Positions 1 through 15,680 of a DNA stretch of 15,680 bases are shown here, one piece after another (the stretch's first letter is position 1; the number at the start of each line of letters is the position of its first letter). The translations under genes and the position numbers were made by a program. The notes beneath the pieces are model-generated. The model did not search any database. It was not told where the DNA came from and worked only from the letters and a program-made list of their open reading frames with translations. Source of the DNA: a virus; the IMG/VR virus record IMGVR_UViG_3300045988_122518; one strand, 5' to 3'.

Positions 1-1
1 T

Positions 2-832
2 GAAAGTGGAAGGATCACCAGAAGAAGCCATTGTAAAGTTAAAGTTGGACTGAATCTTACAGTTAGGAATAATAAATTCAGCAGGCATATCTACACCATC
101 TTGATTACGGAATAAAGTAGAAGCTTCAAGATAATAGTTACCACCAAATTTATCAGCAGTAATTTCAATCTGCTTAGCACCAGATTCACGCTCAGTGTAA
201 TAATCAACCATTACAGAGTCGCATTTAGCATAATCATTCTCTAAATCGTTAGTAGTATAAGCCGCTCCAGTAGAACGAGCAAATCCCTTTACGGTAACAC
301 TAAAACCAGTGTCTCCAGTGGTAACTCCTTCATGTGCTAAATAAGGCTCAGAAATAATTTCGCCATCCTTCATGAAGAAAACATAAACATAATCGTCATC
401 TTTATGTTCATTATCAAGATAAGGGGCATAAGAGACAGGAATAATTAATCCATCAGTTTTAATGTCTTTTTCAGTATTAGCAGGGACAATGTCTTTAGTC
501 TTATCAACAGTTTGAATAATATGTTGCTTAATCTTATTGTTAGCAGAAGCCTCAACAAGACCAGCACCGGAAAGAATCATGAAACCTTCAGGAGAAATAA
601 GAGCATCTTCCATTGTGAAGGTAACAGTACGCTCGCCTTCCCATGCGACTAAGTTAGTATTACCACGACCGCCCTGTGCGTATACGGTGGTAGCAGCGCC
701 TTCCATACTGGAAGTCTTTAAAGTGTCGAAATAAATAACTGGCTCGTTCTTATAAAATTGCTTATTACCAATCTTTTGATTAGCCTTTGCCTTTAAAACG
801 ACATCGCAAATTTCGCGTACACCAAATTTCAT
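2..832 (-). CDS. Phage structural protein, probably a tail (major tail or sheath-like) protein. The 5' end is complete (ATG at 830-832) and the 3' end is truncated by the window start; at least 277 codons; no in-frame TAG.
   Basis: Hand translation of the reverse strand gives an uninterrupted frame from ATG (plus 830-832) to position 2, with no TAA, TAG or TGA. The ribosome-binding site reads TAAGGAGGAAAAAAACCT-ATG. The sequence is Gly/Thr/Val-rich and looks beta-structural (MKFGVREICDVVLKAKANQKIGNKQFYKNEPVIYFDTLKTSSMEGAATTVYAQGGRGN...). It lies downstream of the capsid and connector genes in the late operon. The ORF track omits it because it runs off the window edge. The tail assignment rests on position and composition only. 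Confidence 0.7.
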   Translation of the reverse strand, partial: MKFGVREICDVVLKAKANQKIGNKQFYKNEPVIYFDTLKTSSMEGAATTVYAQGGRGNTNLVAWEGERTVTFTMEDALISPEGFMILSGAGLVEASANNKIKQHIIQTVDKTKDIVPANTEKDIKTDGLIIPVSYAPYLDNEHKDDDYVYVFFMKDGEIISEPYLAHEGVTTGDTGFSVTVKGFARSTGAAYTTNDLENDYAKCDSVMVDYYTERESGAKQIEITADKFGGNYYLEASTLFRNQDGVDMPAEFIIPNCKIQSNFNFTMASSGDPSTF

Positions 833-856
833 AGGTTTTTTTCCTCCTTAAAAAAT

Positions 857-1582
857 TTAATGGATATTTTTCATCCAGTTATCCGGCTTATTATCAGGCT
901 TCGCGCCTGCTAATCTAGACCGGATATCAATATCCCAATTAATATAAAGTTGATATCTTTCAACAAGGTCATAGAGTTGGAACATTGTTAAATCCATTAA
1001 ATCCTGTAAAGACATTGAATCAAGACCTATAGTAAGCATTGAAAGATACTAACTAAATATACTAGCATTAGCCGTGCCGTTTAATTCAGCGACACGTTGT
1101 CTACCTCGCATTAATTTATCGGCTATCTTTTTCGCGGCCGCATTTCCAGGATTGAATCCCATTTCTTGCGAAGCATTAGATTTAAAACAAAATATTTCTT
1201 TAATATATTCCTATAATATATTAAAATTGCTTTCGTCAATCATTATTTGTGGATCACCTTGTAAAACAATTGACCTCGGGGTAAATAAAACATTTTGCTT
1301 TGGAAACAATAATGTAAGAACCTACATAGATGCTTGTTTTTTATCGGCCATCTCTTTTTCTTTCATCATTGTCATAAATATCTAAAAATTATTTGTTTCT
1401 CTTAAAAGACTTTCGCCCGAATTCTCTATTATGTTTTTATCAATACATAAACACTAAATCCCCAAGAAAAGATCTTTTTCACCTATAAAAGAAATTTCTT
1501 TTATAGATGGCTAATGAATAGTGACTTCTAATTCAGGTATTGGTAAATCAATACCTGTCATTAAACCAAGTCTAATATCCAT
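857..1582 (-). CDS. Hypothetical structural-module protein, 241 aa, with 6 in-frame TAG sense codons (plus-strand cta at 1511, 1454, 1382, 1322, 1211, 1049). Its ATG overlaps the upstream TAA as TAATG.
   Basis: Track ORF 857..1039 continues upstream in frame through six TAG codons to ATG at plus 1580-1582. The first in-frame TGA lies upstream at 1589-1591. The stop is TAA at 857-859. The ATG shares a base with the TAA of the upstream gene (translational coupling). Product begins MDIRLGLMTGIDLPIPELEVTIH(Q)PSIK... Confidence 0.6.
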
Positions 1583-2163
1583 TATTCTTCAGTTCTTTTT
1601 TTAAAATCTTCTATAAATCTTTCCTCGTCATTAGGATTCGGCATAAATTTTTTATCTTCCTCGCCATGAACTGCCTGATACATAAGACATAAACCAGCAT
1701 ATTCATCAGTTAAAATAATTTGATTCGCACCAAGAAATTCTAACTTACCAATACCAGTTAAATGCGTTTTATCTATCATGCTATCAATTTCCGCGGCGAT
1801 GCGATAAGGGCGTAATTGATAATCTTTTAAATGCCATTGATCAAAATGACAAATAATATCGAATTCAACAATATTATCTCTAAACTCAGGATTTCCACTT
1901 TGTGTAAAATTATCAAAATTAATAATTAAATAATTTAATACACTTCCATCAACATAAAGTTTAGGAATTAACTTAATATTTTTATTAAATAATTGAATCA
2001 TTTGTTCATCATTTAAATCTGGTTTATCAATAGCATCTTTTGTTGTATAATACAATAAGCGCTTTAATCTCTCATTTTTACAGAGATGTTTTACAATAAT
2101 TTCTAAATCTTTTTCAACAGAAAGAAAACTTGATTTAGGTAAATTTACACCATTAATTTTCAT
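1582..2163 (-). CDS. Hypothetical protein, 193 aa (connector/tail region); no in-frame TAG.
   Basis: Intact standard-code ORF. ATG at 2161-2163 is preceded by AAGGAG at 11-nt spacing. Stop is TAA at 1582-1584. Confidence 0.8.
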   Translation of the reverse strand: MKINGVNLPKSSFLSVEKDLEIIVKHLCKNERLKRLLYYTTKDAIDKPDLNDEQMIQLFNKNIKLIPKLYVDGSVLNYLIINFDNFTQSGNPEFRDNIVEFDIICHFDQWHLKDYQLRPYRIAAEIDSMIDKTHLTGIGKLEFLGANQIILTDEYAGLCLMYQAVHGEEDKKFMPNPNDEERFIEDFKKRTEE

Positions 2164-2178
2164 AACACCTTTTACTCC

Positions 2179-3243
2179 TTAAAATAATGATTGAACTACG
2201 ATCGTTTTCTTATAGTCTCCATAACATAAATCGAACTATCCACTATATCCAGAAGTCCAACTTATTTCAACTGTTGGCTTTTTTGCTTCTTTAATAATTT
2301 TTAAAGAAACCGGCAACTTTTTATTATTCTTTATTTCCCATTCTAAAACAGCTTTACCATCAAAATAATAAGTATAAGTTTTTTTTGGAAAAATAAATGT
2401 TTCCCCTATAATATCAGTTGTCGTAGGATTTGGATCAATTGGTTCCGCAATTAAAGAACCAACAGTTTTATCATCTAAATTATCTTCCTACTCATTGGTA
2501 TAATATTCAGTCGCATTGATTTCTAAAATGCCAGGCATACTTATAGAATCTACAGCTTCAACACGCCAACAAATTAAATTATCTCCCTCATCCTAACCAT
2601 CTAAATAAAATTTAGTATAACGTTTAAAATATCTTAACGTATCTTTATTTTTTGGCATTAAAATATTTAATGAATAATTAGGATTATCTATACTAATTTC
2701 ATGTTTCTGAATATAATCAATTTTCGTTTCTACAGGACCGCGAATTGCTGCATAAGTAGATTTCTTCTCTCCCTCATCTACCCAATTTATTTTATAAGAG
2801 CATTTTCTAATATCTCCTCTAAAATAAGCTAATTCAGTCAAATCCTAAAGATAACAAATCCAATAGGTATTAGTTCCACACCATTCAAAAATATCTCCCG
2901 GTTTAAACTAATATTCATTTCCAACAGACAAAATCTTATCATCATAATCCTATTTCAATTTATTAGGATTAATCAAACATCTAATAGGTTTTTTATATTC
3001 CGCATCCTATTTAATAATTTCCGCGGCTTGGTATGAATTCCATACTGCTCTATCTAAACTTCTGCGTTTAGATAAAATCATACGCTCTTGTTGGCGGTTT
3101 CCGCCCATTTGACCGAGCCGGACCGCCATATAATTAACGCCTTCAACAGGGCTACCTTTAAAGGGTGGCTTATCATAAATTTCTAAGCGACCTTGCTATA
3201 ATCTAAAAGGTTGCTTACTACTATAATCAAACCCTGACGCCAT
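2179..3243 (-). CDS. Hypothetical structural protein, 354 aa, with 9 in-frame TAG sense codons (cta at 3196, 3007, 2950, 2908, 2845, 2593, 2488, 2236, 2197).
   Basis: Track ORF 2593..2841 is only the middle fragment. Hand translation extends the same frame upstream to ATG 3241-3243 (RBS AGGAGATAAATT-ATG; TAA directly upstream) and downstream to TAA 2179-2181. There is no TAA or TGA in between. Product begins MASGFDYSSKQPFRLQQGRLEIYDKPPFKGSPVEGVNYMAVRLGQMGG... and ends ...GDYKKTIV(Q)F(Q)SLF. Confidence 0.65.
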
Positions 3244-3568
3244 AATTTATCTCCTATAAAAGACTGATCGTTTCAAACACAGTCTTACGATAAAAATTAA
3301 AATCAGTATCTTGATTCTACAATCCCTCAAGTTTATTTAATAACTATAAATAAAGGGGTTCAGCGTTAAAAATCACACTAAACCCCACAATTTCATTTAT
3401 AACAGTTTCTAGCTATTTATGCCAATCTTCATTATTTTCGCGCATTGGAATTAATTTCCATAATTGATTGGTTAAGCGCAAACAATTTACTTTTATACTC
3501 TCTATTGGAATATCAAAATTATATTTAGTAATCATATCGACTTTTAAACACATCCCAATTAGATTCAT
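3227..3568 (-). CDS. Candidate small overlapping ORF, 72-113 aa depending on start (ATG at 3568, 3553, 3535 or 3445), with 4 TAG codons. Tentative.
   Basis: A second reverse frame has no TAA or TGA for about 119 codons (3584 down to 3227). That is unexpected for AT-rich non-coding DNA. It overlaps the 3' end of the 3525..4097 gene and the first 17 nt of the 2179..3243 gene. No convincing RBS. It contains the hairpin annotated separately. Confidence 0.3.
3331..3386 (-). terminator. Candidate intrinsic terminator for the minus strand: GGGGTT / AACCCC 6-bp stem with a 20-nt loop, followed on the minus strand by TTTATTTAT.
   Basis: Inverted repeat ggggtt (3355-3360) / aacccc (3381-3386). The T-rich run is the reverse complement of 3331-3354. 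The long loop makes it weak. Do not score this together with the overlapping-ORF call above: at most one of the two is right. Confidence 0.3.
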
Positions 3569-4097
3569 ACTCACCTTTGTTATTTAGACGTCTGCGTTTA
3601 TATAAACGCTACATATGGTGAGATTGTCTTTGGCATTCACCTAATAAATTCAATAGCTTTGATAGATGATTTGCCTAAGAAGTAAATTTAAAATCAGAGC
3701 CACTATATTTCATTCGAGTATTCTCAATTGAAGTGACTTGTCTTTGCGTCCAACCGCACATCATTAAAATAGCTAAAATATTAATTTCTTCTTCAGTTAG
3801 ATCACAATTAAAACTGGATCTATCAACTAAAACTTGAGGTTCTTCACCCGGTTCTGGAAGTTCCCCCCATACTGTTCCTACAATAAAATCATCCGGCATA
3901 GCATCAGATTCATTAATAGTAGCGACATCTAAATTATAATCTAAAAGATTTTTTCGCGGAAATTCAAATCCAGGAATAGCATCTATTATAAGATTCTATA
4001 AATCTCTTAGAGTATCTTCAGGGGTCAATTCCAGATACATATCATCAGTAACCTTGTTTAGAAAGCGATTATAAACAGCTGAGAATAATGTTCCCAC
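3525..4097 (-). CDS. Hypothetical head-tail connector-region protein, 190 aa, GTG start, 3 in-frame TAG (cta at 3996, 3675, 3609).
   Basis: Track ORF 3675..3899 extends upstream through TAG 3996 to GTG at 4095-4097. An in-frame TAA (4098-4100) lies directly 5' of the GTG, and AGGAGGG sits 7 nt upstream of it. The frame extends downstream through TAG 3675 and 3609 to TAA 3525-3527. Confidence 0.6.
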
Positions 4098-4116
4098 TTA
4101 ATCGCCCTCCTATAAA

Positions 4117-4710
4117 TTATTTCTTGGAGGAAGTTTCCTCGGTTTTATTAATTACTTTATATCCAGAACCGCTTGTGCGACGACCTTGAGTAGTAGGTTC
4201 TTCTCTTACTACACGACGCTTAGCAGCGGGTTCTTTCTCTACAATAGTATCTTCTTCTTTACTAGCGATATCATTAGCAATAGCTTTATCAACATCAAAC
4301 CCAGTTTTTTCCTTCAAAGCTCTACGCTTATTAATATCAGTAATAGGAAGGCTAACAGATAAATTCTTGATTAAGTCAATAATTCCAATAGGAGCAAAAT
4401 CAAGAGCATCTAAAAAAGCATCTAATGAGCCATTAAGAATTAAATCAGCAACTTGTTGCTCTGACATATTATATTCAGGTTCAGTATGAACATTAAGAGT
4501 ATGAGTTACTTCTGGCTCTAAAATTTGTAAAAAATTAGCAATTAATTCACGGCCGCCCGCCTGATAAGTTAACTTCTCTAGCTCACCAAATGGAATGCGC
4601 TTAGTTTCACCGGGCGCAAATTCACGACGCAAATTGGTATCAGGAATAGTATAAACAACTACGCTAGTGCTTCTATTTTTTACATTATAAATATCTTCAT
4701 TATTAATCAT
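4117..4710 (-). CDS. Hypothetical protein, 197 aa, with a basic C-terminal tail (…KRRVVREEPTTQGRRTSGSGYK…); no TAG.
   Basis: Intact ORF. ATG 4708-4710 follows AAGGAG at 10-nt spacing. Stop is TAA 4117-4119. It is the first gene after the capsid-gene terminator. Confidence 0.8.
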   Translation of the reverse strand: MINNEDIYNVKNRSTSVVVYTIPDTNLRREFAPGETKRIPFGELEKLTYQAGGRELIANFLQILEPEVTHTLNVHTEPEYNMSEQQVADLILNGSLDAFLDALDFAPIGIIDLIKNLSVSLPITDINKRRALKEKTGFDVDKAIANDIASKEEDTIVEKEPAAKRRVVREEPTTQGRRTSGSGYKVINKTEETSSKK

Positions 4711-4730
4711 TATTCAATTTCTCCTTTTAC

Positions 4731-4777
4731 TCATAAAACAAAAATATGGGGAGAGGGAGTTTAATCCCTTCTCCCCA
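4731..4777 (-). terminator. Rho-independent terminator immediately downstream of the major capsid gene (minus strand).
   Basis: Left arm GGGGAGAGGGAG (4748-4759), loop TTTAAT (4760-4765), right arm CCCTTCTCCCC (4766-4776). The stem is 11 bp with one mismatch. On the minus strand it is followed by ATATTTTTGTTTTAT. Confidence 0.7.
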
Positions 4778-4796
4778 TGGAATAATTTATATTAAA

Positions 4797-5903
4797 TTAG
4801 ACAGTACCGTCAAGGCGACCATCATAAGTGATAACCTTACCAGTAACTCCATCATAATTCCAAGTATACATCTGACCGAGAAGTGAAGTATCAACATAAG
4901 CACAGATGTTATTAGCGAGCATGCAAACTACGCCAACCTTCTTGTAAACCTGAATCTCACGAGAACGATCATAATTGTTGAACTCGTCAACAATAGTGCC
5001 ACCTTCAAAAGCAATCTTTACAGGCTTACCATCAGCGCCCGTAGGAATAACCCAAGCATAGCCAGGATCAATAACCTTACGAGTATTGGTTTCATCTTCA
5101 AAGCCCTGCTCAAGAATAATAACCTTAGTACCCTTGTAAGTGGCAAGACGACCATTATTCCAAAGCTCGTTCTTCATAGCTTCAGTATATCTCCAAGCCT
5201 CATGAGGAATCATCTTAACAGCAAACTCATAAGTACAATAAATAGTAGGAGTACCATAAGCAGAAGCAATAGTGATCAAACGATCCATAGCAGCTTCATC
5301 AAATCCGGCAGCCGCAACGCGGTTAGCAGGAGGAAGCTGATTGATAGAAGATCTAAGAGCAGCAGCGACTTCTTTATAAATAAGTTCATCCATACCATCC
5401 ATGATGATCTTGGTTACTTCACCAAAATCAACACGACCATCAAGGAATTCTTCGAAGCCAATCTGAGCAGCTCCGCCGATAGCGCTAGTACGTACCTCAA
5501 AGGCTTCATTCTCTTTAGGTCCGAGCTTGAAGACTTCATAAATACCAGCAAGACCAACGCGAGTTACAAACTGCTTAGCACGAGCACGATTATTAAGAGG
5601 ACGACGGAAAATAGGCTTATCACCCTGAGCGAAAGTTTTAACCTCAGCAAACTGATCATATTGCTGAATAACTTTCTTAGGAAGAACCTCATCAAGAGTC
5701 TGCTCAATCATAGAGAAAATAAGATTCTTATTTTCACGATAAAGAGCGTAAGTACCAGCCAACTCATTCATTTCATTACGAAGAGTTTCATTTAAGGCTT
5801 CATAACTAAGATTTTTTCCCTCATAACTATAAGCAACAGGAGCAGAAGGATCAGCCTTAGCAACTTGCTTCATAAGAGCAATTAAATTATTTTTATCTAA
5901 CAT
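4797..5903 (-). CDS. Major capsid protein (HK97-fold type), 368 aa; no in-frame TAG.
   Basis: Intact ORF with RBS AAAGGAG and TAA stop. The sequence (…RPLNNRARAKQFVTRVGLAGIYEVFKLGPKE…AMDRLITIASAYGTPTIYCTYEFAVKMIP…) is typical of caudoviral major capsid proteins. It lies downstream of the portal, a scaffold-like gene and a 305-aa head gene, and is followed by a strong terminator. The family assignment is from memory of capsid sequences, not from a search. Confidence 0.75.
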   Translation of the reverse strand: MLDKNNLIALMKQVAKADPSAPVAYSYEGKNLSYEALNETLRNEMNELAGTYALYRENKNLIFSMIEQTLDEVLPKKVIQQYDQFAEVKTFAQGDKPIFRRPLNNRARAKQFVTRVGLAGIYEVFKLGPKENEAFEVRTSAIGGAAQIGFEEFLDGRVDFGEVTKIIMDGMDELIYKEVAAALRSSINQLPPANRVAAAGFDEAAMDRLITIASAYGTPTIYCTYEFAVKMIPHEAWRYTEAMKNELWNNGRLATYKGTKVIILEQGFEDETNTRKVIDPGYAWVIPTGADGKPVKIAFEGGTIVDEFNNYDRSREIQVYKKVGVVCMLANNICAYVDTSLLGQMYTWNYDGVTGKVITYDGRLDGTV

Positions 5904-5920
5904 TATCCTTTTCTCCTTTC

Positions 5921-6838
5921 TTACTTAATACGCATTACCTTGACGCCCTTTTGACCATCAGGCATAGTATAAACCTTAACAACCTGCCAGGTCATTGAAT
6001 CGTCGCCAGTTTTGCTAAGAATACCCTTTGTAGCAGCAGAAGGAGAAAGCTTATCTCCAACAGCAAGAGTCTCTTCATTAATCATATTAGTAGTATAAAG
6101 ATCACCAATCATGGTCTTAAATACACGAGGAACCATAGAAGTACCAGATTCCATGAACTTCTCATGGTAGATACCCAACTTATGATATGGATCATTGGTC
6201 CAATTCATTTCATACATATCAGGAACATCAGTGAGAACCTTATCATAGTAATACTTTACAGGAACATTAGCAACCTGATGATTACTATCAAGAGTATATT
6301 CATTACCATCATAAGTAAATTTGCCGGTTTCATCAACATCATAAACACGACCAGCAATAGTAACAGTCTTTAAGCCCTGATCGGCAGAAACGGTCTGATT
6401 GATTAATTTATAGGTTTGACCCTTTTCATCAACACCATTCCAGAAACGACCACCATATTCAACCTCGGTATGCTCCCAATCATAAGGACTATAAACACGA
6501 GCCTGATAGTCATCTTTAATCATAGCAAATTCGCAGTCCCACTGCTTACTACCATCATAATGATCACGATAAAGCTTAATCTCGTTATAAACGAGCATCC
6601 ATTCACCTTCGCCAGTGAAGTTGACTTCACCGATACCATTACCATTAGCAGCATAGTCATACTTTACAAACTGACCGTTTTCAAGAATCTCAATGTCTTT
6701 ATTGGCAGGAAGTTGAGCATAGATTTGAGCATTTCTTTGTGCGGAAAGGTGATTAGGCTCGACCTGACCGTAACCAAACTCAACATACTTTGCCTGAGAC
6801 TTAATAGGAAGATTCTTATTCAAAAAGTCTTTAAACAT
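5921..6838 (-). CDS. Head-associated protein, 305 aa (possible decoration or auxiliary capsid protein); no TAG.
   Basis: Intact ORF. ATG 6836-6838 follows AAGGAGG at 9-nt spacing. Stop is TAA 5921-5923, 17 nt before the capsid gene RBS. Gly/Tyr/Asp-rich and beta-type composition. Confidence 0.75.
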   Translation of the reverse strand: MFKDFLNKNLPIKSQAKYVEFGYGQVEPNHLSAQRNAQIYAQLPANKDIEILENGQFVKYDYAANGNGIGEVNFTGEGEWMLVYNEIKLYRDHYDGSKQWDCEFAMIKDDYQARVYSPYDWEHTEVEYGGRFWNGVDEKGQTYKLINQTVSADQGLKTVTIAGRVYDVDETGKFTYDGNEYTLDSNHQVANVPVKYYYDKVLTDVPDMYEMNWTNDPYHKLGIYHEKFMESGTSMVPRVFKTMIGDLYTTNMINEETLAVGDKLSPSAATKGILSKTGDDSMTWQVVKVYTMPDGQKGVKVMRIK

Positions 6839-6855
6839 TTAGTATGTCCTCCTTA

Positions 6856-8430
6856 TTAATTTTTGTTGGCGGTAGCAAAAGCCGCCTTCACCCAAGCGGG
6901 CATATCATCATCTTCTGAACCATTATTGTTCAAATTAAAAGTAGTAGCACCATTGGGCTTATTATTTTCGTCAAGGTCGAAACTCACCTTGTTGCGAACA
7001 CAAATAACAGATAATTTAGCTTCAATATCATCAAGAGAATATTTATCAATATTTTCAACAACATCAGCCTTATCTTCATCAGAAAGCATATAGAATTTAG
7101 CAATCATATCTTCTTTATCTTTCTTTTCAGCAGCATTTTTAAATTCAGCAAGTGGAGCAATTTGCTCTTTCAAGCTATTATTTTCAGTTTCAAGAGCTGC
7201 GAATTTAGTCTGTAATTCATCATACTGAGCTTTAAGTTCAGTATATTCAACAACTTCTTCAAGAGAATAATTCTTCTTTTTCTTTTTATCATCATTCTCA
7301 CCATTGTCGCCTTTATCAGACTTATTAGAGGGCTCTCCATTATCAGGGTTCTTTTTATTATCATTGCCCTCTGATTTATTTTCACCGTCAGGATTATTTG
7401 ATTTATTATTTTTGTCCTCTTCTGCTTTCTTTTTTGAAGCATACTCATTTTCAAATTCTTCTACAGCATTAAGAGCAAACTGAGGCTCAGCCGCAGGAGC
7501 ATAATCAGTTACTTCAATCAAAGTATCAGAAGGAACGAAATTCTCTGCATCAAGAGAAAAATCCATACGATAGTATTTTTCATCCTGCTTATTCTTCAAA
7601 ACAGCAAACTTTTGTTCACCATCTTCACAAACACCTTCAATGCGATAAACAGAACAATAATTCTTTGGTTCGACAGGATACTTATTCTCAATATAAGAAT
7701 AAAGAGAATTCCACAAATTGTCGCCAATATTAACAGCGTATTGTGTAAACACTTTGGCTCCTCCTTCTTTCATAAATTCTTTAAGTTCATTCATCATGGA
7801 GAACAAAGTGTTCTTAAAACCATCATCGAATGAAAAATTCACATTGATTTGGGAGCCTTCGAAACAAGGTTCATTTTCTTCTCCCAAAATACAAAGTTTA
7901 GAAATAATTGCCTTATTTATAATAAAAAACTAAGGTTTTCCATTGCTATCTTTTGCCCACGTAGCATTTAATGTTTTTTCATCAAGCTCCATAGAATGAT
8001 TATTCCCTTTATCAACCACACGTTTACATTCAGGATACTAACCAGTCCACAAATAACCTTCAGTCATTAAATACTCACGTTCGGCAACACCATCATCCAA
8101 AAATTTCTAAAACCAAACTTTAGCTCCAAGATCAACAAAACCATAAGGGCGAGTATTATCTCTCATTCTAAATTCGCCGTTAGATAATTCAATTATCCTA
8201 TTATGTTCTTCAAAATCTTCAGCATTCTCATTAAAAAAGCCAACAATAGGACTGCCAGGAAGGCTATTAGCCATCTCAGTCGCTACATCTTTAGTAATTA
8301 CGCTTTTATTACGATTAGGTTTATCATCTACATAACAAACCTTAATTTGGCATTTAGAAATTAAAGGATTTACAGGAGTTATATTTATAAACTCACAAGG
8401 TGTATTTAATTTAATACTTGTATGTTTCAT
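6856..8430 (-). CDS. Head morphogenesis protein, 524 aa: an N-terminal globular domain (possible prohead protease or minor head domain) fused to an acidic coiled-coil scaffold-like C-terminal part. Has 3 in-frame TAG (cta at 8107, 8038, 7930).
   Basis: Track ORFs 8107..8430 and 6856..7887 share one frame and are joined by TAG codons with no TAA or TGA between them. ATG 8428-8430 follows AAGGAGG. Stop is TAA 6856-6858. The C-terminal half is K/D/E/N-rich low complexity plus heptad-like coiled coil (…ELKAQYDELQTKFAALETENNSLKEQIAPLAEF…). It sits between the portal and capsid genes. The protease idea rests on position only. Confidence 0.65.
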
Positions 8431-8439
8431 AAATCCTCC

Positions 8440-10089
8440 TTATTTCATTGCTTCTTTATTTTGAATAGTTTTTTCACTTTTCTAATCGTCAGGTTTTTCC
8501 GGACGCCCTGCCTCACCATTAGAAGTTTTAACAGTTCCAGAACCTGAGCTTCCTGAATTATTTTGAGTTTTATTATTAGATGATGAACCTTTTAAACCCA
8601 AAATATCTTCACTACCCATAGTAGAACTCATAAGAGGAGGAATCATAATTTCGCTTAAATGTAAAATCTCATTTTCAAAATGAGCTGCATTAAGAATAAA
8701 ACTCTACGAATGTCCAAGAGCAATCTAAGACAATAGTTTTGATTGTCCCATTTGTGCTTGTTCTTTATACATTTTAGAAAGTGTTTGATAATTATTCTAA
8801 GTAGTTTCTAATAAATAAAATCTAAAATTATATTTCTTATTACTACTCTTTTTTTCAATAATTCTATTAAAGAATATATTAAACTATAAAATTAAACTTC
8901 TTATTGTAGATTCATCATTTAATACTGATTTTTCTAAAGCCATATTACCATCAGTATTAAATAAATTCTATGAAATACCTAATGAATTATAAACACTACG
9001 TTCAACTTTAGCTAAATCATCTGTCGTTGTAGTAGTATTCTTATCAGACATATCAATAGAATCTACATCAGTAAATGTAGTTAAAACATCTACTCCAATA
9101 GCCCTCTATAACATCTAAACGGCATTATTATGGATATCTCTGGCTTCATCAACATCAAATATCAAATCACCATTTTTATCCATTGGGAGCTTTTGGACTA
9201 AAATTTTAAGCAACTTCTACATTTGTTTCTTGCGGTCAAGATCTTGCGCTGCATCTAAATCCATAATAGTAGGAATCGAATTTACAAAAATAGGAACATC
9301 ACTATTATTAATATTAAATTTAATACAATTTTCTGGCTCAAGAACATACCAACTACCAGTATGCTAGCATCCAACCGCTTCTTCTAAAGCAAGTTTTCCT
9401 TGCTTATATAAAACATAACCTTTAGCAAATTCTTCTGGGAATAATTTTAATACTTTTAAACGATAATTCATATCTCTAAAAGTATCAAAAAATCGCATAT
9501 CAAATTCAACAACTGGGGTATTATTTACACTATAACGTGTTCTACAATATCTAACTGGTAATTCTTGTAAAATTAGATTTTTCTCAGAAGGAACTATATA
9601 TCCATAATAGCATCCATTTTTAACGACTTGTAAAGCAATATCTCCACAAATCTTTTTAATATAACTATTATCAAAATAATTTAACATTCTATAAAAATCT
9701 TTTAAAACTTTTTCTTCTTTTACATTATCATCATAAGTCTCAGCCGCGATATACCAATCATAACGATATAAAAAAGCAACATAATTACAAACTCGTTGAT
9801 ATACACCACTTATATCATAATAAAAATTAGAAATATAACGCAAAGCATTTAAATCTTTTTCTGCAAGCGCGCGAAGCACATCAGGTTTCGTGATAATACG
9901 AGTTTGACCTGGGTATCTAATCTTACTATAATCACCAAGTTTTAAAATAGCGTCATCTAAAGTTTTTGTGCCAACTTTTATTTTTCTATTGGCATAGTCC
10001 ATGGTATCATTATAATTATATTCATAACGACCATTATAAATATCAAAACCTTTAGCATGAATCTATTCATTACGATCTTGCGTATCCAA
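8440..10089 (-). CDS. Portal protein, 549 aa, TTG start, 11 in-frame TAG (cta at 10063, 9364, 9217, 9115, 9106, 8968, 8884, 8797, 8725, 8704, 8482).
   Basis: Track ORF 9364..10002 is only the N-terminal third. The frame continues with no TAA or TGA down to TAA 8440-8442. Upstream, AAAGGAGGTGG followed by 7 nt and TTG at 10087-10089 is a much better start than the internal ATG 10002. An in-frame TGA lies at 10120-10122. It is the large gene directly after the terminase. Size and position fit a portal. Confidence 0.65.
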
Positions 10090-10102
10090 AGTTCCACCTC
10101 CT

Positions 10103-10459
10103 TTAATAACCTGCTAATTTCATTATATAATCATAAGAAATAAGGTTTTCGTCGGTATATGGAATCTCTATTAATCTAAAATCATGTAAAGCGCAAAAAC
10201 GTCTTTTTTGATTATCATTATATTGCTACTGGTATAAACCGCGCTTTCCACCAAATTTAGAACTGGCTTCATAATGCTATTTTCCCTAATACTCAATAAT
10301 GAAATCAATTTTTCCATCATCATCAAATATAACAAAATCAAAACGAAGCGGACGCCCGCTTGGGCTTTTTAAATCTGGAAAGATGTATTCCATTTTAAAA
10401 GGTAGTCCTGCTTCTTCTAAGATTTCTTCAATTTTAATTTCTCCTCTTGAAGCACGCAT
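10103..10459 (-). CDS. Small nuclease-like protein, 118 aa, between terminase and portal: putative PD-(D/E)XK / Vsr-like (DUF559-type) homing endonuclease. Has 3 in-frame TAG (cta at 10286, 10277, 10226).
   Basis: ATG 10457-10459 follows AAGGAGGG at 6-nt spacing. Stop is TAA 10103-10105. Motif …RPLRFDFVIFDDDGKIDFIIEY(Q)GK(Q)HY… resembles the (P)D…ExK/QH core of Vsr/DUF559 restriction-endonuclease-like folds. This is recalled from memory and needs an HMM check. Confidence 0.5.
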
Positions 10460-10471
10460 TTTCCACCCTCC

Positions 10472-12211
10472 TTAATTTAAAAAGCACCAATCAGCCGCAT
10501 TAAACTTTTTACGTTTTTTCTTTTTATCTTCTTCAAGTTTTAAATAATATAATCCATATTCAAAAGCCGAAAATTTATCTTTACGAATTCCGCGATTTGC
10601 CTATTTTAAAATAATATTAATACCTTCATTTTCTTCGCGTAAATTCATCATTTCTTCTTTTAATATGGAGGTTAAAGTAAATGGTTTTAAATAATCTGCC
10701 CTTTGTTCAGAAGTCATTTTTGAACCTTTTTGAGTAGCTAATAATTTTTCTTTAGCTGTTCTCTCATCTATTAAGAATTTTACCTTACCCGCTTGTAATT
10801 GAGTCTGAGCATTAGCATGACATTCAGTATTTATTGGAGCATTTGCTTTAATAACATACATAGCATCAAATTGAGTATTTGGTGTGCGATATTTTTTATA
10901 ATATCCATCATCATCATTCTCAACACCAAAATCAGGTAAAAATTCACCATCTTCATCATTTTGAGATTTTACCATATAATCCAAAAGTCCAATACCTAAA
11001 CCATTACCATCTATAACCAAAGTTTTAGCTTTATATTTATAAAATAATTTCTTTAATTTAATAGCCTGATCTTCAAAATGATCATCTGACATAGTATACA
11101 TATTTACTAAAGACTTAATAGCTGGACCTTGGGCTTGTGGTGTTACTTTAAATACACAAACTACTGAATCGCATCCTTTACGACCTACATCTACAGAAAG
11201 CACATAATAAGCTTGCGCGCCCGCACGTCCAGAAGCTTCATACTCAGGCTATAATAATTTTCTATTTCTATCAAAATGCTCTCCATTAAAGAAAGCATCC
11301 TCAACAGTTCCTGACCACTTAGATTCATATTCACGTTCAAATGAAGCTTCATTATAAGTTCCTTCATTCTTTTGGTCAGTAATAAATGTTTTACTTTGTA
11401 ATCCTACTGCAACAGGAGTTCGCCATGTTCCGCCTAATACCATACAACGATCGGGCTAAGTCACCATACGAACTAAGAAACCAATAAGTCTATCATAAGG
11501 GAATGTGCCCTTATAACCAGCAGTAGTAATATAAATTTGTGATTTATTTAATGGCTCTTGTTCATTAGTAGTGCCGTCTTTGGCTCTACGAGAAATTGCC
11601 ATAACAGGAATAATAACTTCACGAAGAATAGCATCATCAATACCAACACATTCTTCCATTAATCCACCATGACGACGTTGACCACGAGTGCTTTCACGAG
11701 CCGCAAGGTTATCCAAAACTGAACCATTTTTAAATACATATCTAACTTTATCTTTTCCTTCAAGAGTTTTTCCTCGGCTCCAATCAATTTCTCGATTAAA
11801 GCTTGGAATAAGTTCGCATATTTCTTGAACTTTATCATGAAGAATACTAGCACCTTGCTCTTTACCTCCAGAAGTAACGAACAAATGTGCGCCAGGATAT
11901 AAAATACATCTAATCATTAATGTCATAACAGACAAAAATGATTTAGAATAAGCACGAGGAAAAACCGCATAAACATACTGATAACGCATAACAGAACGGA
12001 GAAATACTCTCTAATAAAAATAAAAATTAAATTCTCCATCTTTTATTTCAGTGCGTCTTCCTCGCACCATAAAATCTACAAATAAATCAGGATATTCTCT
12101 CCAAAAGGCAACGTATTTGCGGATGGTAGGCATTACCGCTTCTACTCGCTCCGGTGATAGACCTATTTTTCTACGGCTATCACTTAACTACAATAAATCT
12201 TGTAATGCCAT
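10472..12211 (-). CDS. terL: Terminase large subunit, 579 aa, 5 in-frame TAG (cta at 12188, 12011, 11456, 11249, 10601).
   Basis: Track ORFs 11456..11989, 11249..11443 and 10601..11203 are one frame joined by TAG. The N-terminus has an ATPase with a deviant Walker A (VFPRAYSKSF). The C-terminus has an RNase-H-like nuclease (LSVDVGRKGCDSVVCVF … TLVIDGNGLGIGLLDYMV). ATG 12209-12211 overlaps the upstream TAA as TAATG. Stop is TAA 10472-10474. Confidence 0.8.
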
Positions 12212-13398
12212 TATTTATCCAAACCCTATAAAAACTCATTATCTTGCGCAGATTCCTATTCTTTAAATTCCTCAAAATCTGCGTAATCACTATCTTTGAT
12301 AGTTTTTTCAAGTTCTTCAATACTTAAATCAGCATCATCAACGATATCGCTTTCCGCGTTCTTTGCTTTCTCTTCATCTTCTTTAGCATTTTCGCGCAAA
12401 GCTTTTTCTACCATTGTACTGATATTAGTTTCATCTTCAATAAGAGTGCGAGTATAACGTTGCATATCTTGAATAGTCAAGTCCACTTTATCATGTGGCT
12501 ATTCAACATAATATCTTTCAATATATCCTTCTTTTTCACATAATTCAATTAATTCGCCAATTGAATCAACAAATTCGCCTGATTCTGCTTTATTTTGGGC
12601 AGCAGTAAATTTACCAGACTTCATTAAGCTATCATATACTTTGCTCATCTTTTGGAAACCTTCAATATCACCAATATCGATCAATTGATTTGCCTTTAAA
12701 GATGTCTTACATATTAATTTTAGCGTATCTTTATGTCCGGCGCCTTGAATATCATAAGAAGCCATCATTTCTTCATATAACTATTCAAGTTTAACCCATT
12801 CTTCAGGTTTATAAGTTTTGCCCCATTTAAGTCTTAAATAAGTGCGGTCTTCATCAGTTAAATCTAATTCTTGTTCCACTTCACCACTCTATTGTGCGAA
12901 ATAATCTTCCGTAGGGGCATCAGGTGGTGGAGCATAAACCGGCTCTTTTAATTCTCCTTCTGGAATAGTAATAGAACTTTTTTCAATAGCAGTTGCAATC
13001 TATTGAGCATCATACCCTTGACGTTTCATAGTTTGCTCTAATTTATTATTTGCCATCTACTGTAAAAATTCTGTATCTTTCCAACGATAATCTTTAAACT
13101 ATTTGAGTTTCATTTTTGACAAATAACGTCCAAGAATTGTCATACCGGTCATAGACTGCGGATCGCGTCCATATTTTTCCATTAATTTATTCCATTCATC
13201 TGGAACATAAGGAACATCCGCTTCTTGTAAAATCCATAAATAAGTATCTGGATTCCAATTATCGACGTGCATTGTCATACATTTTTTGCACATGGGGAAT
13301 TTACCATTATTAGGATATTTTTCTAAATTATTAGATGAATAAAATTCCGTGCCATTCATTGTGCGATTACATTTTTCGCAATAATATGTTTCAGCCAT
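12211..13398 (-). CDS. Putative terminase small subunit or DNA-recognition protein, 395 aa, with an N-terminal CxxC…CxxC zinc ribbon and an acidic C-terminus. Has 8 in-frame TAG (cta at 13099, 13057, 13000, 12889, 12781, 12499, 12256, 12226).
   Basis: Track ORFs 13099..13398, 12499..12768 and 12256..12486 share one frame joined by TAG. ATG 13396-13398 follows AAAGGAGAA. Stop TAA 12211-12213 overlaps the terL ATG, giving translational coupling. The TerS call rests on position only. Confidence 0.55.
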
Positions 13399-13447
13399 AA
13401 ATAAAAAATTCTCCTTTCAATTATTTATTATAAACAAAAGGACAATA

Positions 13448-14503
13448 TTAAGATTTTTTGGCCTTAGAATTTCGACAACTTTTACAAATACTATAAAAGC
13501 CATCTTTACTTGTTTTATTTTTACTAAAATATTTATTATGAGCTAATTTTATTTTACCACAACGACTACATTTTTTATATTTACCTTTTTCAACATTTAA
13601 ATAATAATTATCTAAATATTCATCTTCCGCAGTCGAAGCAATTAATTTTGGAATTTTATTACGCCATAAACTTGAAATATATTCAAGACTATGTTTAATA
13701 CCAAATTCCATTTGTATTTTCTCTTGAATGTCAATATTTTGTAAACCATCAATTTTATATTCAACGATTCTATCATAAAGAGGATAATTAGCTAAAGCTT
13801 TATCACAAAGCTTATCAAAATCCTCCATTAAATACCATAAGTCTTTATCATATTCGCCCCAACTATCTTGCTTTAATCGGGAATAATTATATAAAACCGC
13901 AGAACATATTTCAGGTCTTAATAAACTAATTCCATCAGGAATGGGAAAACCATCATCATCAAAAATAAATGTTTTATCATCTAATGGAATATAAGACTTT
14001 GATCTGGTTAATTTTGTAGGCACTATTGGACGACGATAAGCATTTTTCATAACATACTAATCTTTACGCATTTCAATAAGAGCCTTTTTAATAACAAAAG
14101 CATCTTTGCCTTCTGTTACTTTTAATTTAGCCTCCCAAACATTAATGGCTTCTCTTAACTAATTTAAACTTGGTATCTCTTCTAAATCTTTTTTTGTAAT
14201 TGTAATATGTGGTTGAAATATTGTATTTCTATTATCTGTAATTAAATTATAAATTCCATCTTCGCCATTTTCAAGTTGGGAAACAAGACCTTCAAAAGAA
14301 GTCTCACGCTTATTAACTGTAGCCATACGATTATCAGTTAATAATTTTTTCTCCTTTTTTTCTTGTTTCTCCATACAAAGAACCAAATAGTCTGCTAAAA
14401 TTTCTAAATACTTTTCAGGCGGATCTGGATTATCAGCCAAAATTTGTTCGACTAATTGATTTCTTTCTTCTGGAGTTTGTAAAGAATAATCAAGTTTTAT
14501 CAT
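13448..14503 (-). CDS. DNA-binding protein, 351 aa, with a C-terminal CxxC…DG…CKxC zinc ribbon. It is the first gene of the late operon and a possible regulator. Has 2 in-frame TAG (cta at 14159, 14057).
   Basis: Track ORFs 14159..14503 and 13448..14050 share one frame joined by TAG. ATG 14501-14503 follows GGAGGT at 5-nt spacing, directly downstream of a consensus promoter. Stop is TAA 13448-13450. C-terminus reads …KKCSRCGKIKLAHNKYFSKNKTSKDGFYSICKSCRNS. Confidence 0.6.
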
Positions 14504-14527: not shown

Positions 14528-14556
14528 ATTATACTCGAAAAAATTTTTTTTGTCAA
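14528..14556 (-). promoter_or_regulatory. Sigma-70-type promoter for the minus-strand late operon: TTGACA – 17 nt – TATAAT, all 12 consensus positions matched.
   Basis: Reverse complement of 14551-14556 is TTGACA. Reverse complement of 14528-14533 is TATAAT. The spacer is 17 nt. The minus-strand gene starts at 14503 about 25 nt downstream. Confidence 0.6.
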
Positions 14557-14638
14557 GTTTCATTTAAAATTTTTTCTTTTTATATTTAAAAATTTTTTTA
14601 ACAAAACAAATAACTTTTGCCCAATCACTCTCCACGAT

Positions 14639-14667
14639 TTGACATTTCTTTATTTTTATTTTATTAT
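14639..14667 (+). promoter_or_regulatory. Sigma-70-type promoter for the plus-strand genes: TTGACA – 17 nt – TATTAT.
   Basis: ttgaca at 14639-14644 and tattat at 14662-14667. Downstream are AAGGAG and ATG 14697. Confidence 0.5.
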
Positions 14668-14696: not shown

Positions 14697-15089
14697 ATGG
14701 AAACTATTTTTATTATATTATTGAGTTGTGCGTTAGTAGCATCACTCCTTTTTTTATGGTTATATAGAAAAGCTTTTTGGGTATTGTACCAAAAAATGGT
14801 AAATTAGCAAAAAGAATTGAATAAATGGCCAATCGCACAATATGAGTGTATGCTATTGTTAAATATATTTTATAATTATGATTTTGAGGGAAGAGCAGTA
14901 GATTTTTCGCGATATGAAACGCAAGGACTAATTGTTTATAATTGTTTTCATGATGCAAAAAATAGTCCAAAAGGAATTACAAATGATGGAATTGTTTCAT
15001 CATTTTATAAACAAGCATTTGTATATGAATTAGATGATGGAACATTTGAATGGGAGGATATTGAAGATGGGATGGAACCAGCCTTTTGA
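14697..15089 (+). CDS. Small membrane-anchored protein, 130 aa, with an N-terminal transmembrane helix and 1 in-frame TAG at 14805-14807. Terminated by TGA.
   Basis: ATG 14697 follows AAGGAG at 5-nt spacing. The hydrophobic N-terminus reads METIFIILLSCALVASLLFLWLY. The frame continues through TAG into track ORF 14817..15089. Stop is TGA 15087-15089, so TGA is not reassigned. Confidence 0.6.
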
Positions 15090-15462
15090 AGTAAGAGGGA
15101 TAGACGCGGTAATATTTAGATTAGAACAAGAATATTTTAACGCAACAAGAGATAAAGACCCTTTTGTAAGAGATTGGAAATTATTTAAAACAATACGTAT
15201 TGAGCAAAAGGATAATGGGTCAAGAACAATTACTTATAAACCTTTATCAGACGCGGAAAAGGCTCAATTAAGCACCAAAGAAGAGCAAAGGGAATATCAA
15301 TTAAATAAATACAAATATGTATTAGAGCATCTAATGGAAAAATATGATACAGATACTATTAATAGATATATTGATAGTTGTAAATATAAAGATAAATTAA
15401 TCGAATATGTGGAGGAAAAATTAAATGCGGAAACCCCTCAGCCCCTTGAAGGCAGTCGCTAA
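15067..15462 (+). CDS. Hypothetical protein, 131 aa, no TAG; overlaps the upstream gene by 23 nt.
   Basis: GGAGG at 15053-15057, 9 nt before ATG 15067. Stop is TAA 15460-15462. Track ORF 15034..15462 is in the same frame; ATG 15034 or 15037 are alternative starts. Confidence 0.6.
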   Translation: MGWNQPFEVRGIDAVIFRLEQEYFNATRDKDPFVRDWKLFKTIRIEQKDNGSRTITYKPLSDAEKAQLSTKEEQREYQLNKYKYVLEHLMEKYDTDTINRYIDSCKYKDKLIEYVEEKLNAETPQPLEGSR

Positions 15463-15553
15463 AAAGTATCAGCAGAAAGCTACCTATTCTGCTACTTCTG
15501 GATTATACACTCTTATGTGGGGTGAAAAACCCAAGAGAGGTAGAAAAAAGAAG

Positions 15554-15680
15554 TCGTAATTTAAGATTTTAAATTATTCTTCGTAATTTGAAATTGAAAA
15601 TTGATTTGTTGTTTTAAATCGTACTTTGAAATTGAAAATTGATTTGTTGTTTTAAATCGTACTTTGAAATTGAAAATTGA
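15554..15680. repeat. Tandem direct repeat: 38-bp unit CGTA(C/A)TTTGAAATTGAAAATTGATTTGTTGTTTTAAAT, at least 2.6 copies (15582-15619, 15620-15657, 15658-window end), plus a degenerate copy at 15554-15580. The array continues beyond the window.
   Basis: Direct reading: copies 2 and 3 are identical over the available length, and copy 1 differs at one base. Each unit contains an internal TTGAAA/TTGAAAA sub-repeat. There are no spacers, so it is not a CRISPR array. Confidence 0.85.

What the first reader, a model, noticed from the sequence alone, without database searches (positions are those of the whole stretch)
15554..15680. 38-bp iteron-like tandem array at the window edge: possible replication origin or genome terminus
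At least 2.6 near-identical 38-bp direct repeats, plus a degenerate upstream copy. Each contains TTGAAA(A) sub-repeats. They lie in a non-coding stretch downstream of the plus-strand genes and continue beyond the window. Arrays of this kind are typical of iteron origins, initiator binding sites, pac/terminal-repeat regions, or boundaries of mobile elements.
Basis: seen in the sequence. Interest (0 to 1): 0.55.

Follow-up and report, generated by a model that had tools for sequence, protein, structure and literature searches.

The report
Repeated box of a phage control site
The 38-bp repeats are real: they are extra copies of the first box of a conserved, single-copy ~110-bp protein-binding DNA site lying between the late (packaging) genes and the early genes of a ~190-kb gut phage that reads TAG as an amino acid, most likely its DNA-packaging start site, though this is unproven.

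Summary
The tandem array is real: 27-nt degenerate copy 15554-15580, then 38-nt units at 15581, 15619 and 15657 (cut by the window edge). It is far beyond chance.

The window is a TAG-recoded, SPbeta-like siphovirus of Firmicutes. Relatives reach 190-197 kb, and there the array is internal, not terminal.

The conserved feature is not the array. Each unit carries a dyad-like box, M (CGTAAT-yyGAAAT-TGAAAAT-TGATTT). M is the first block of a ~110-bp module that aligns without indels across relatives down to ~68% TerL identity: M, then TTGnCCAGnCAAAA, then an AnTn tract, then CCCGAAATACACCCCC.

- The module occurs once per genome.
- It always lies 3-7 kb upstream of TerL, in one orientation.
- It sits at the left edge of a battery of at least 25 consensus sigma-A early promoters.
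- M occurs 1 to at least 4 times, with periods of 20-47 nt, through independent expansions.

No RNA fold, Rfam family, promoter, marked DUE or nearby initiator gene was found.

Best guess, about 0.37: a pac-type packaging recognition site, at the same position as the mapped SPbeta pac. Rivals are a replication origin and a regulatory site. The window probably ends here because identical repeats break assemblies.

The parts
15554..15580 (+). Degenerate first unit (27 nt, internally deleted copy of the box). Its first six bases, TCGTAA, include the TAA stop codon (15557-15559) of the 44-aa ORF.
   Evidence: Sequence read; ORF 15425-15559. Compared with the 47-nt unit type of relatives.
15581..15618 (+). 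Unit 1 of the 38-nt array. It carries box M (CGTAATTTGAAATTGAAAATTGATTT) plus a 12-nt linker, GTTGTTTTAAAT.
   Evidence: nhmmer M profile hit 15581-15607.
15619..15656 (+). Unit 2 of the 38-nt array (box M plus linker).
   Evidence: nhmmer M profile hit 15619-15645.
15657..15680 (+). Unit 3, truncated by the window edge after the M core. In relatives the last M is followed at fixed spacing by block 2 (TTGnCCAGnCAAAA), an AnTn tract and block 3 (CCCGAAATACACCCCC). These lie beyond this window.
   Evidence: Downstream blocks are seen in relatives.
15425..15559 (+). 44-aa ORF with a basic C-terminus (KPKRGRKKKS) that ends at the start of the array. It is present only in close relatives, so it is context rather than a conserved partner.
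   Evidence: No family hit.
15034..15462 (+). 142-aa ORF of unknown function upstream of the array (context only; it is replaced by other genes in distant relatives).
14528..14667 (.). Divergent pair of near-consensus sigma-A promoters. Minus strand 14556..14528 (TTGACA-17-TATAAT, 12/12) drives the sigma-factor gene and late operon. Plus strand 14639..14667 (11/12) drives the three small plus-strand genes that run into the array.
12211..13398 (-). YonG-like protein (395 aa with TAG read through; N-terminal zinc ribbon) immediately upstream of TerL. It is the candidate small terminase / DNA-recognition subunit that would read the module.
   Evidence: phrog_3314. YonG_N Pfam tag on the homologue in L201.
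10472..12211 (-). Large terminase (579 aa with three in-frame TAG codons read through), YonF/SPbeta type.

Best explanation
Shown: the 38-bp array is a lineage-specific tandem amplification of box M. M is a roughly 27-bp imperfect dyad (CGTAAT-yyGAAAT-N9-ATTTyr). It is the gene-proximal block of a single-copy, roughly 110-bp DNA module that aligns without indels: M, 9 bp, TTGnCCAGnCAAAA, about 17 bp, an AnTn tract, then CCCGAAATACACCCCC. The module is conserved throughout a family of ~190-kb TAG-recoded SPbeta-like siphoviruses. It sits in one orientation at the junction between the late operon (sigma factor, YonG-like, TerL, portal) and a long battery of early sigma-A promoters. The fixed spacing, the absence of any consensus RNA fold and the dyad symmetry indicate a nucleoprotein complex assembled on duplex DNA. 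Inferred: the complex is the packaging initiation (pac-type) site. The YonG-like small terminase would bind M, with extra M copies adding binding sites on the terminase-gene side, as cosB R sites do in lambda. The AnTn tract would supply an intrinsic bend. Cleavage or motor loading would occur at or near the invariant GC-rich block 3. Headful packaging would then proceed leftward through the late genes. The window ends inside the array because identical tandem units and a segment shared between co-occurring strains break short-read assemblies.
For: The array is real and non-random. The same box is at the same place in 17 close relatives, with 1-4 copies. It is also in distant relatives, with different periods. 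The module aligns ungapped over about 110 nt in 37 distinct versions. The block 3 17-mer is single-copy in every family contig, including six of 190-197 kb, in a scan that was not truncated. A profile search of 1.75 Mb of family DNA gives one strong hit per locus, plus only adjacent M copies. RNAalifold finds no consensus structure on either strand, and there is no Rfam match. M has the strongest dyad symmetry in the module. An AnTn tract abuts block 3 in 28 of 37 versions. The module is always 3-7 kb upstream of TerL in the same orientation. The packaging genes are of YonG/YonF type. In SPbeta, restriction mapping of virion DNA put the presumed pac site between or around yonR and yonP, which is the same late/early junction, and packaging is thought to be headful (PMC8270828; gene layout). 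The SPbeta and Enterococcus phage H1 junctions also carry clusters of short repeated boxes. Family contigs of full size start at arbitrary positions, as expected for permuted or circular assemblies. The module is a sharp mosaic boundary.
Against: No direct evidence of terminase binding or cleavage exists. Contig ends are enriched about 3.7-fold just left of the module, but they are scattered over about 130 nt. Graph branching at a conserved or repeated segment explains this equally well. The module is separated from the YonG-like gene by the sigma-factor gene and, in this lineage, by three small genes. The SPbeta pac location is only coarsely mapped, and its boxes share no more than a TCGTAA hexamer with M; that clustering is not seen in E3, Sundance, H1 or Phass-1. 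The position at a switch of transcription direction fits a replication origin equally well.
Confidence: 0.37

Rival explanations
1. Replication origin. M boxes would be binding sites for a phage initiator, with variable iteron number. The AT-rich stretch and AnTn tract between M and block 3 would be the unwinding or loading region. Replication would start at the point from which late and early transcription diverge.
For: The site is unique. The dyad boxes are amplified 1 to at least 4 times on one side of a fixed core. An AT-rich interval is followed by a GC-rich block. The location is at a switch of gene orientation and GC skew. From my own knowledge: lambda ori and lactococcal phage ori ('Per') regions have tandem dyad or direct repeats next to an AT-rich segment.
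Against: A single M copy is common, and the repeat period is not conserved (20-47 nt). The module is not a notable duplex-stability minimum: 4-26% of windows within 2 kb either side are less stable. No initiator, helicase-loader or primase gene lies within about 10 kb on either side. There are no DnaA boxes.
Confidence: 0.25
2. Transcriptional control or insulator element of the early region. A dimeric phage or host regulator would bind M, and possibly the related CCGAAAT core in block 3, to gate or shut off transcription entering or leaving the early promoter battery.
For: M is a dyad-symmetric, operator-like box. The module lies immediately upstream of the first of at least 25 early promoters. 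It is flanked by terminator-like hairpins in many lineages. A CCCGAAA element is about 16-fold enriched in early-promoter spacers, though present in only 3% of them.
Against: No promoter overlaps M (and my own inspection). Known repressor operators in this phage group are multi-copy; SPBRE/MrpR is at about 10 promoters (PMC10516654), whereas M is strictly single-site. Roughly 110 bp of indel-free architecture is more than a simple operator needs.
Confidence: 0.18
3. Physical genome end. The module would be the boundary of a long direct terminal repeat that contains the early genes (SPO1/T5-like), or a cos site, with the repeats playing the role of the short repeat arrays next to the T7 terminal repeat.
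For: The layout resembles T7, SPO1 and T5 ends: packaging genes on one side and a dense set of strong host-type early promoters pointing inward on the other (the comparison rests on my own knowledge). The window and two IMG/VR contigs end in the array. Two metagenome contigs end 3 nt after block 3.
Against: Full-size contigs carry the site internally, at varying coordinates. There is no single-nucleotide pile-up of contig ends across lineages. No second copy of M or block 3 marks another boundary. The contigs that end in the array are those with several identical units.
Confidence: 0.1
4. Site-specific recombination (multimer-resolution, res/dif-like) site, or a functionless slippage-prone repeat.
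For: Three conserved sub-sites at fixed spacing within about 110 bp recall res sites. The site is unique and is a mosaic boundary.
Against: No recombinase gene is nearby in the window or loci. The arm and spacer geometry is unlike dif or lox. Strong purifying selection on the box and module across deep divergence excludes a functionless repeat.
Confidence: 0.05

Closest known systems
Putative pac region of Bacillus phage SPbeta (yonP-yonR junction)
   Same: Homologous packaging and structural module (YonG, YonF/TerL, YonE, YonD, YonB types). The site lies at the junction of the minus-strand late operon and the plus-strand early genes. The region holds a cluster of short repeated boxes: 5 ATCGTAA in 230 nt against 0.22 expected.
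   Different: No sequence homology beyond a TCGTAA hexamer. SPbeta lacks block 2, block 3 and the AnTn architecture. SPbeta uses the YonO RNA polymerase rather than a sigma factor, is temperate, uses the standard code and is 134 kb. Its pac is only coarsely mapped and no function has been shown for its boxes.
Lambda cos (cosQ-cosN-cosB with R3-I1-R2-R1)
   Same: The order and polarity match. A conserved GC-rich core sits farthest from the terminase genes, then a bend element, then one or more terminase-binding boxes on the terminase-gene side, all at fixed spacing. The site is unique in the genome. (Comparison from my own knowledge.)
   Different: There is no evidence of cohesive ends. The bend is intrinsic (AnTn) rather than an IHF site. 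The number of boxes varies from 1 to at least 4 between close strains. The site is 2-5 kb from the candidate small-terminase gene rather than abutting it.
SPP1 / P1 pac sites (repeated boxes flanking a cleavage region, headful packaging)
   Same: Repeated short boxes bound by the small terminase, intrinsically bent DNA, and headful packaging giving permuted ends and circular assemblies. (From my own knowledge; SPP1 is proposed as the model for SPbeta in PMC8270828.)
   Different: SPP1 pac lies inside the small-terminase gene. Here the site is intergenic, and the boxes lie on one side only of the conserved core.
Iteron-type origins (lambda ori; lactococcal phage ori/'Per' regions)
   Same: Tandem dyad or direct repeats next to an AT-rich stretch in a non-coding region, with repeat number varying among relatives.
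   Different: One copy suffices in many relatives, the period is irregular, there is no strong DUE, and there is no adjacent initiator gene.
Short repeat arrays beside the T7 terminal repeat (left end: repeat array, then strong early promoters A1-A3)
   Same: An array of short direct repeats lies immediately upstream of the first strong host-polymerase early promoters, next to sequences involved in concatemer processing. (From my own knowledge.)
   Different: T7 has a fixed 160-bp terminal repeat and defined ends. Here there is no sign of fixed ends, and the repeat unit is a 27-bp dyad box rather than a heptamer.

Membership tests
Iteron-type replication origin | Several directly repeated initiator-binding sites, as a conserved property of the locus | tested here: not met
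   Copy number is 1 in L010, L045, L047, L017, L030, L032 and L046, and 2 to at least 4 elsewhere.
Iteron-type replication origin | Regular spacing or helical phasing of the repeats | tested here: not met
   Periods are 20, 27, 28, 29, 34, 37, 38 and 47 nt in different lineages.
Iteron-type replication origin | Adjacent AT-rich DNA-unwinding element of unusually low stability | tested here: inconclusive
   An AnTn tract is present in 28 of 37 versions. However, 4-26% of 40-nt windows within 2 kb either side are less stable.
Iteron-type replication origin | Cognate initiator gene at or next to the repeats | tested here: not met
   No replication-type family appears among neighbouring genes (PHROGs, Pfam, gene table). 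Small early genes of relatives were not searched individually.
Iteron-type replication origin | Supports initiation of replication | not testable with these tools
   Needs 2D gels, marker frequency analysis or plasmid assays.
pac/cos packaging recognition site | Unique site in the genome | tested here: met
   The block 3 17-mer occurs once per contig, including 190-197 kb contigs. The profile gives one strong hit per locus.
pac/cos packaging recognition site | Linked to the terminase genes with fixed polarity | tested here: met
   It is always 3-7 kb upstream of TerL, on the same strand relative to TerL, in all family loci.
pac/cos packaging recognition site | Positional equivalence to an experimentally mapped pac in a phage with homologous packaging genes | tested here: inconclusive
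   The SPbeta pac maps to the yonP-yonR late/early junction (PMC8270828; layout). The mapping is coarse and there is no sequence homology.
pac/cos packaging recognition site | DNA ends generated at or near the site in virions | tested here: inconclusive
   Contig ends are enriched left of the module (12 observed, about 3.2 expected) but scattered, which assembly-graph branching also explains. Read-level data are not available.
pac/cos packaging recognition site | Bound or cleaved by terminase | not testable with these tools
   Needs biochemistry.
Physical genome terminus / direct terminal repeat | Complete-length contigs begin or end at the site; a matching repeat at the other end | tested here: not met
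   The site is internal, at varying coordinates, in 181-197 kb contigs. There is no second copy in the window or the genomes.
CRISPR array | Repeats separated by unique spacers of similar length | tested here: not met
   Units abut head to tail, and the 12-20 nt linkers are themselves repeated.
Known structured RNA (Rfam) | Match to a covariance model, or a conserved fold with covariation | tested here: not met
   No Rfam hit in the module in L014 at E up to 1, nor anywhere in L017, L019 or L046 at E up to 0.1. RNAalifold gives 0.0 kcal/mol consensus on both strands for 37 versions.
Repressor operator of SPBRE/MrpR type | Box present at several promoters across the genome, overlapping promoters | tested here: not met
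   M occurs only at this site within the DNA held. It does not overlap a sigma-A promoter. SPBRE is at about 10 promoters (PMC10516654).
Partition (centromere-like) site | Adjacent parA/parB-type genes | tested here: not met
   No such genes are in the window or the neighbouring loci.

The most novel reading that the evidence does not exclude
The module is neither a classical pac nor a classical ori. It would be a previously undescribed 'gate' at the head of the early-gene battery of code-15 Firmicutes phages. One possibility is a combined packaging and replication start site. Another is a DNA-entry or early-transcription checkpoint, analogous to but unrelated to the T5 injection-stop signal. 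In either case it would be read by an unknown dimeric protein, and the copy number of its box would be under rapid, strain-level selection.
Probability: 0.12. Interest if true: 0.65.

Novelty: new member of a known kind. Interest (0 to 1): 0.42.

Why it matters
This family of ~190-kb phages that read TAG as an amino acid is common in gut and rumen metagenomes but has never been cultured, and nothing is known about how it replicates or packages DNA. The module is the most conserved non-coding sequence seen in the roughly 20-kb stretches examined here: identical 17-mers persist where TerL has fallen to about 70% identity. That makes it a concrete, testable handle for three things: locating the packaging start or origin, designing family-specific probes or primers, and explaining why assemblies of these phages break at this point. 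The rapid, independent expansion of one box also gives a natural dosage series for experiments. If the pac reading is right, it would also help pin down the still unmapped SPbeta-type pac signal.

Tried and rejected
1. Extending the source contig failed. The 142-aa and 99-aa window proteins are not on record. The 114-aa protein led only to the contig of L047.
3. The GC-richer DNA after the array in L001 first looked like a chimera or host junction. I rejected this: L001 is internal to L014's 197-kb contig, and the DNA is the phage's early cluster.
4. M does not work as a sigma-A promoter on either strand. No hexamer pair is conserved (and inspection).
5. M is not a late (phage-sigma) promoter. 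No M-like motif lies upstream of the late genes.
6. By-eye comparison with host-factor sites (DnaA box, Spo0A box, CodY, cre, sigma-54, dif, parS) found no convincing match.
7. ncRNA hypothesis: no consensus fold and no Rfam hit. The GC-rich hairpin plus T-run downstream looks like an ordinary terminator.
8. A shared YCCGAAAY core linking M, block 3 and early-promoter spacers is enriched but present in only 16 of 528 promoters, so I did not build on it.
9. The module is absent from Phass-1 1-26 kb and from GenBank phages, apart from an unannotated faecal fragment, MT835855.1.
10. TCGTAA box clustering as a signature of YonG-type packaging holds only for SPbeta.
11. Contig-end pile-up as evidence of termini: there is an excess, but not at a fixed nucleotide.

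Full report
**Observation.**

TRF finds a 38-nt period, 2.6 copies and 98% identity at 15581-15680. The unit matches twice in full and never in 200 shuffles. The 23-nt core matches three times and nowhere else in the window.

A 27-nt degenerate unit (15554-15580) precedes the array. Its first bases, TCGTAA, include the TAA stop of a 44-aa ORF. The last unit is cut by the window edge.

**What the window is.**

All in-frame stops in the terminase- and portal-like genes are TAG. Reading TAG through raises the total ORF length from 3382 to 5447 aa and restores a 579-aa TerL and a 520-aa portal. So this is a code-15-type (TAG-recoded) phage.

- PHROGs identifies TerL, portal, an HNH endonuclease and a sigma factor.
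- Homologues of the neighbours carry the Pfam tags YonG_N, YonD_N and YonB.
- The nearest characterised TerL proteins belong to large Firmicutes siphoviruses: Enterococcus EF1/H1/VRE9_4 at 47%, Geobacillus E3, phAss-1 and SPbeta-like phages.
- phAss-1 and its kin are TAG-recoded siphoviruses thought to infect Clostridia (PMC10607447).
- The late genes run leftward from 14503. Two near-perfect sigma-A promoters diverge at 14528-14667.
- Three small plus-strand ORFs of unknown function run into the array.

**Relatives and what lies beyond the edge.**

IMG/VR holds at least 220 relatives, with contigs up to 190-197 kb. The array region is present in 17 close relatives. In those contigs it is internal; for example, it lies at about 132.7 kb of the 197-kb contig.

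Copy number of the core box ranges from 1 to 4 among genomes whose TerL is at least 97% identical. There are two unit flavours, 38 and 47 nt. More distant relatives have their own expansions, with periods of 20, 27, 28, 29, 34 and 37 nt, or a single copy. So the tandem array is not the conserved feature. The box is.

**The conserved module.**

Downstream of the last box, every family member has the same architecture. It aligns without a single indel over about 110 nt in 37 distinct versions:

1. Box M (tCGTAATccGAAATtgAAAAttgaTTT)
2. About 9 nt
3. TTGnCCAGnCAAAA
4. About 17 nt
5. An AnTn tract, present in 28 of 37 versions
6. CCCGAAATACACCCCC

M has the strongest dyad symmetry of any position in the module: 0.66 complementarity against 0.30 +/- 0.10 background.

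RNAalifold finds no consensus fold on either strand, and Rfam finds nothing. The constraint is therefore on duplex DNA, which points to a nucleoprotein complex.

- The block 3 17-mer occurs exactly once per contig in all of IMG/VR, including six contigs of 190-197 kb.
- A profile of the module gives one strong hit per locus in 1.75 Mb of family DNA. The only extra hits are adjacent M copies.

**Context.**

Immediately to the right of the module, after a terminator-like GC hairpin, begins a battery of near-consensus extended -10 sigma-A promoters. There are 13-17 in 6 kb and at least 25 in 11 kb. All point rightward, and each precedes a small gene. This is a classic early, host-takeover-type cluster.

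Among close relatives, the 4 kb to the left is fully alignable at about 96-97% identity. The 6 kb to the right is mosaic. The gene upstream of M differs between lineages and often ends in a terminator. In some lineages an HNH-like ORF even reads into M. So the small ORFs next to the array in this window are not conserved partners of the module.

*Terminus.* Full-size contigs start at arbitrary places. In 74 family contigs from metagenomes, true contig ends are about 3.7-fold enriched 50-200 nt left of block 3. They are scattered over about 130 nt, fall in arrays or where inter-strain conservation stops, and show no common nucleotide. That is what graph branching at a conserved or repeated segment gives. 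It also explains why this window and two IMG/VR contigs stop inside multi-copy arrays.

*Iteron origin.* A single copy is common and the periods are irregular. The module is not a marked stability minimum. No initiator-like gene is nearby.

*Promoter.* No conserved hexamer pair exists on either strand, and there is no similar motif before the late genes.

**Why I favour a packaging site.**

The module is unique and polar, and it is always linked to the YonG/YonF-type packaging genes. For SPbeta, which has the same layout, restriction mapping of virion DNA placed the presumed pac site between or around yonR and yonP. That is the same late/early junction, and headful packaging is assumed there (PMC8270828).

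That SPbeta junction carries five ATCGTAA boxes in 230 nt against 0.22 expected. The equivalent junction of Enterococcus phage H1 has its own arrays of short boxes. A repeat-rich cis region at this junction therefore appears general in the group, with each subgroup having its own box. That is the pattern expected for a co-evolving recognition protein.

The order of elements mirrors lambda cosN / bend / cosB relative to Nu1-A (my own knowledge): a GC-rich core, then a bend, then boxes on the terminase-gene side. Headful packaging would also explain the circular-looking assemblies and the lack of fixed ends.

Against this reading:
- The sequence link to SPbeta is only a hexamer, and its clustering does not generalise.
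- The SPbeta mapping is coarse.
- Nothing here shows terminase binding.
- An origin at the point of divergent transcription remains a serious rival.
- A multi-copy operator like SPBRE (PMC10516654) fits less well, because M is strictly single-site.

**Verdict.**

| Question | Verdict |
|---|---|
| Observation | Confirmed |
| What is shown | The array is a strain-variable amplification of one box of a deeply conserved, single-copy, DNA-level control module at the late/early junction of an uncultured family of TAG-recoded SPbeta-like phages |
| Most likely role | pac-type packaging recognition, about 0.37 |
| Rivals | Origin about 0.25; regulatory about 0.18; physical end about 0.10; other about 0.05 |
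| Novelty | An undescribed member of a known kind of element |
| Interest | Moderate |

Noticed in passing
window 1-14503 (minus strand), e.g. 10472-12211 and 8440-10002: Late genes use TAG as a sense codon. All internal stops in TerL (3) and portal (10) are TAG. Reading TAG through raises total ORF length from 3382 to 5447 aa. No suppressor tRNA was found in six relatives' 21-kb loci.
   Followed up: partly
window 14528-14556 (minus) and 14639-14667 (plus): Back-to-back near-perfect sigma-70/sigma-A promoters (12/12 and 11/12 matches). One drives the phage sigma-factor gene at the head of the late operon. The other drives the three small plus-strand genes.
   Followed up: partly
L014 1-6500, L017 1-5300, L019 1-5500, L205 1964-13597 (to the right of the array in window orientation): Dense battery of consensus extended -10 promoters (AAaatt.Tt.aAAAaA...cTTGACAAA-N10-TgTGnTATAAT), one per small gene: 13-17 per 6 kb and at least 25 in 11 kb. 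GC is about 42%, against about 30% in the late region. 528 distinct promoters were collected across the family.
   Followed up: partly
L014/L010 etc., right of block 3: Among phages with about 96-97% identity over the late side, the early side is mosaic: two unrelated versions start within 20 nt of block 3, and only 9-90% of 6 kb is alignable. The module is a recombination or mosaic boundary.
   Followed up: partly
L030 ~5014-5100, L032 ~4184-4270, L046 ~5177-5260 (reverse strand of the loci): In some lineages an HNH/homing-endonuclease-like ORF is inserted immediately upstream of M, and its reading frame runs into M (…LSFFPELPYSEIEK*).
   Followed up: no
window 10103-10459 (minus): A 118-aa HNH/homing-endonuclease-like gene sits between the TerL and portal genes (phrog_9084, phrog_559).
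   Followed up: no
window 13448-14503 (minus): The phage sigma factor (phrog_5767) carries a C-terminal CxxC…CxxC zinc-ribbon segment that also hits HNH and Lar-like profiles. It gives no Pfam hit at E up to 0.01.
   Followed up: no
L021 and L034 (IMGVR_UViG_3300032167_000002, 402,311 bp): One 402-kb IMG/VR contig carries two different family genomes, with TerL 87% and 76% identical to the window's. It is probably a chimeric join of two ~190-kb phages, possibly through a shared conserved segment.
   Followed up: no
L014 ~6250-6420 (reverse strand); also L017, L019, L030, L081: TTTGTGCAA/TTGCACAAA boxes, often as an inverted pair, lie 20-40 nt upstream of the -35 of the first and a subset of later early promoters. 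This may be a second regulator site class.
   Followed up: no
L352 14239-14463 (SPbeta NC_001884 64238-64462): Five ATCGTAA boxes (three direct, two inverted) lie within 230 nt of the yonP-yonR intergenic region, where the SPbeta pac was mapped; 0.22 are expected from genome density. I did not find these boxes described in the papers read.
   Followed up: partly
L355 22670-23440 (Enterococcus phage H1 OP534061 ~90670-91440): The late/early junction of phage H1 has two arrays of an 8-nt periodic ATATGWWC unit and five copies of the dyad AATAACAnnTGTTATT. The region is unannotated.
   Followed up: no
L292 (JAEIGA010327027.1) first 120 nt: Another independent expansion: at least 4 identical copies of a 29-nt unit (TCCGAAATCCAAAATCTACTTGCTCCGTAA) at a contig end.
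   Followed up: no
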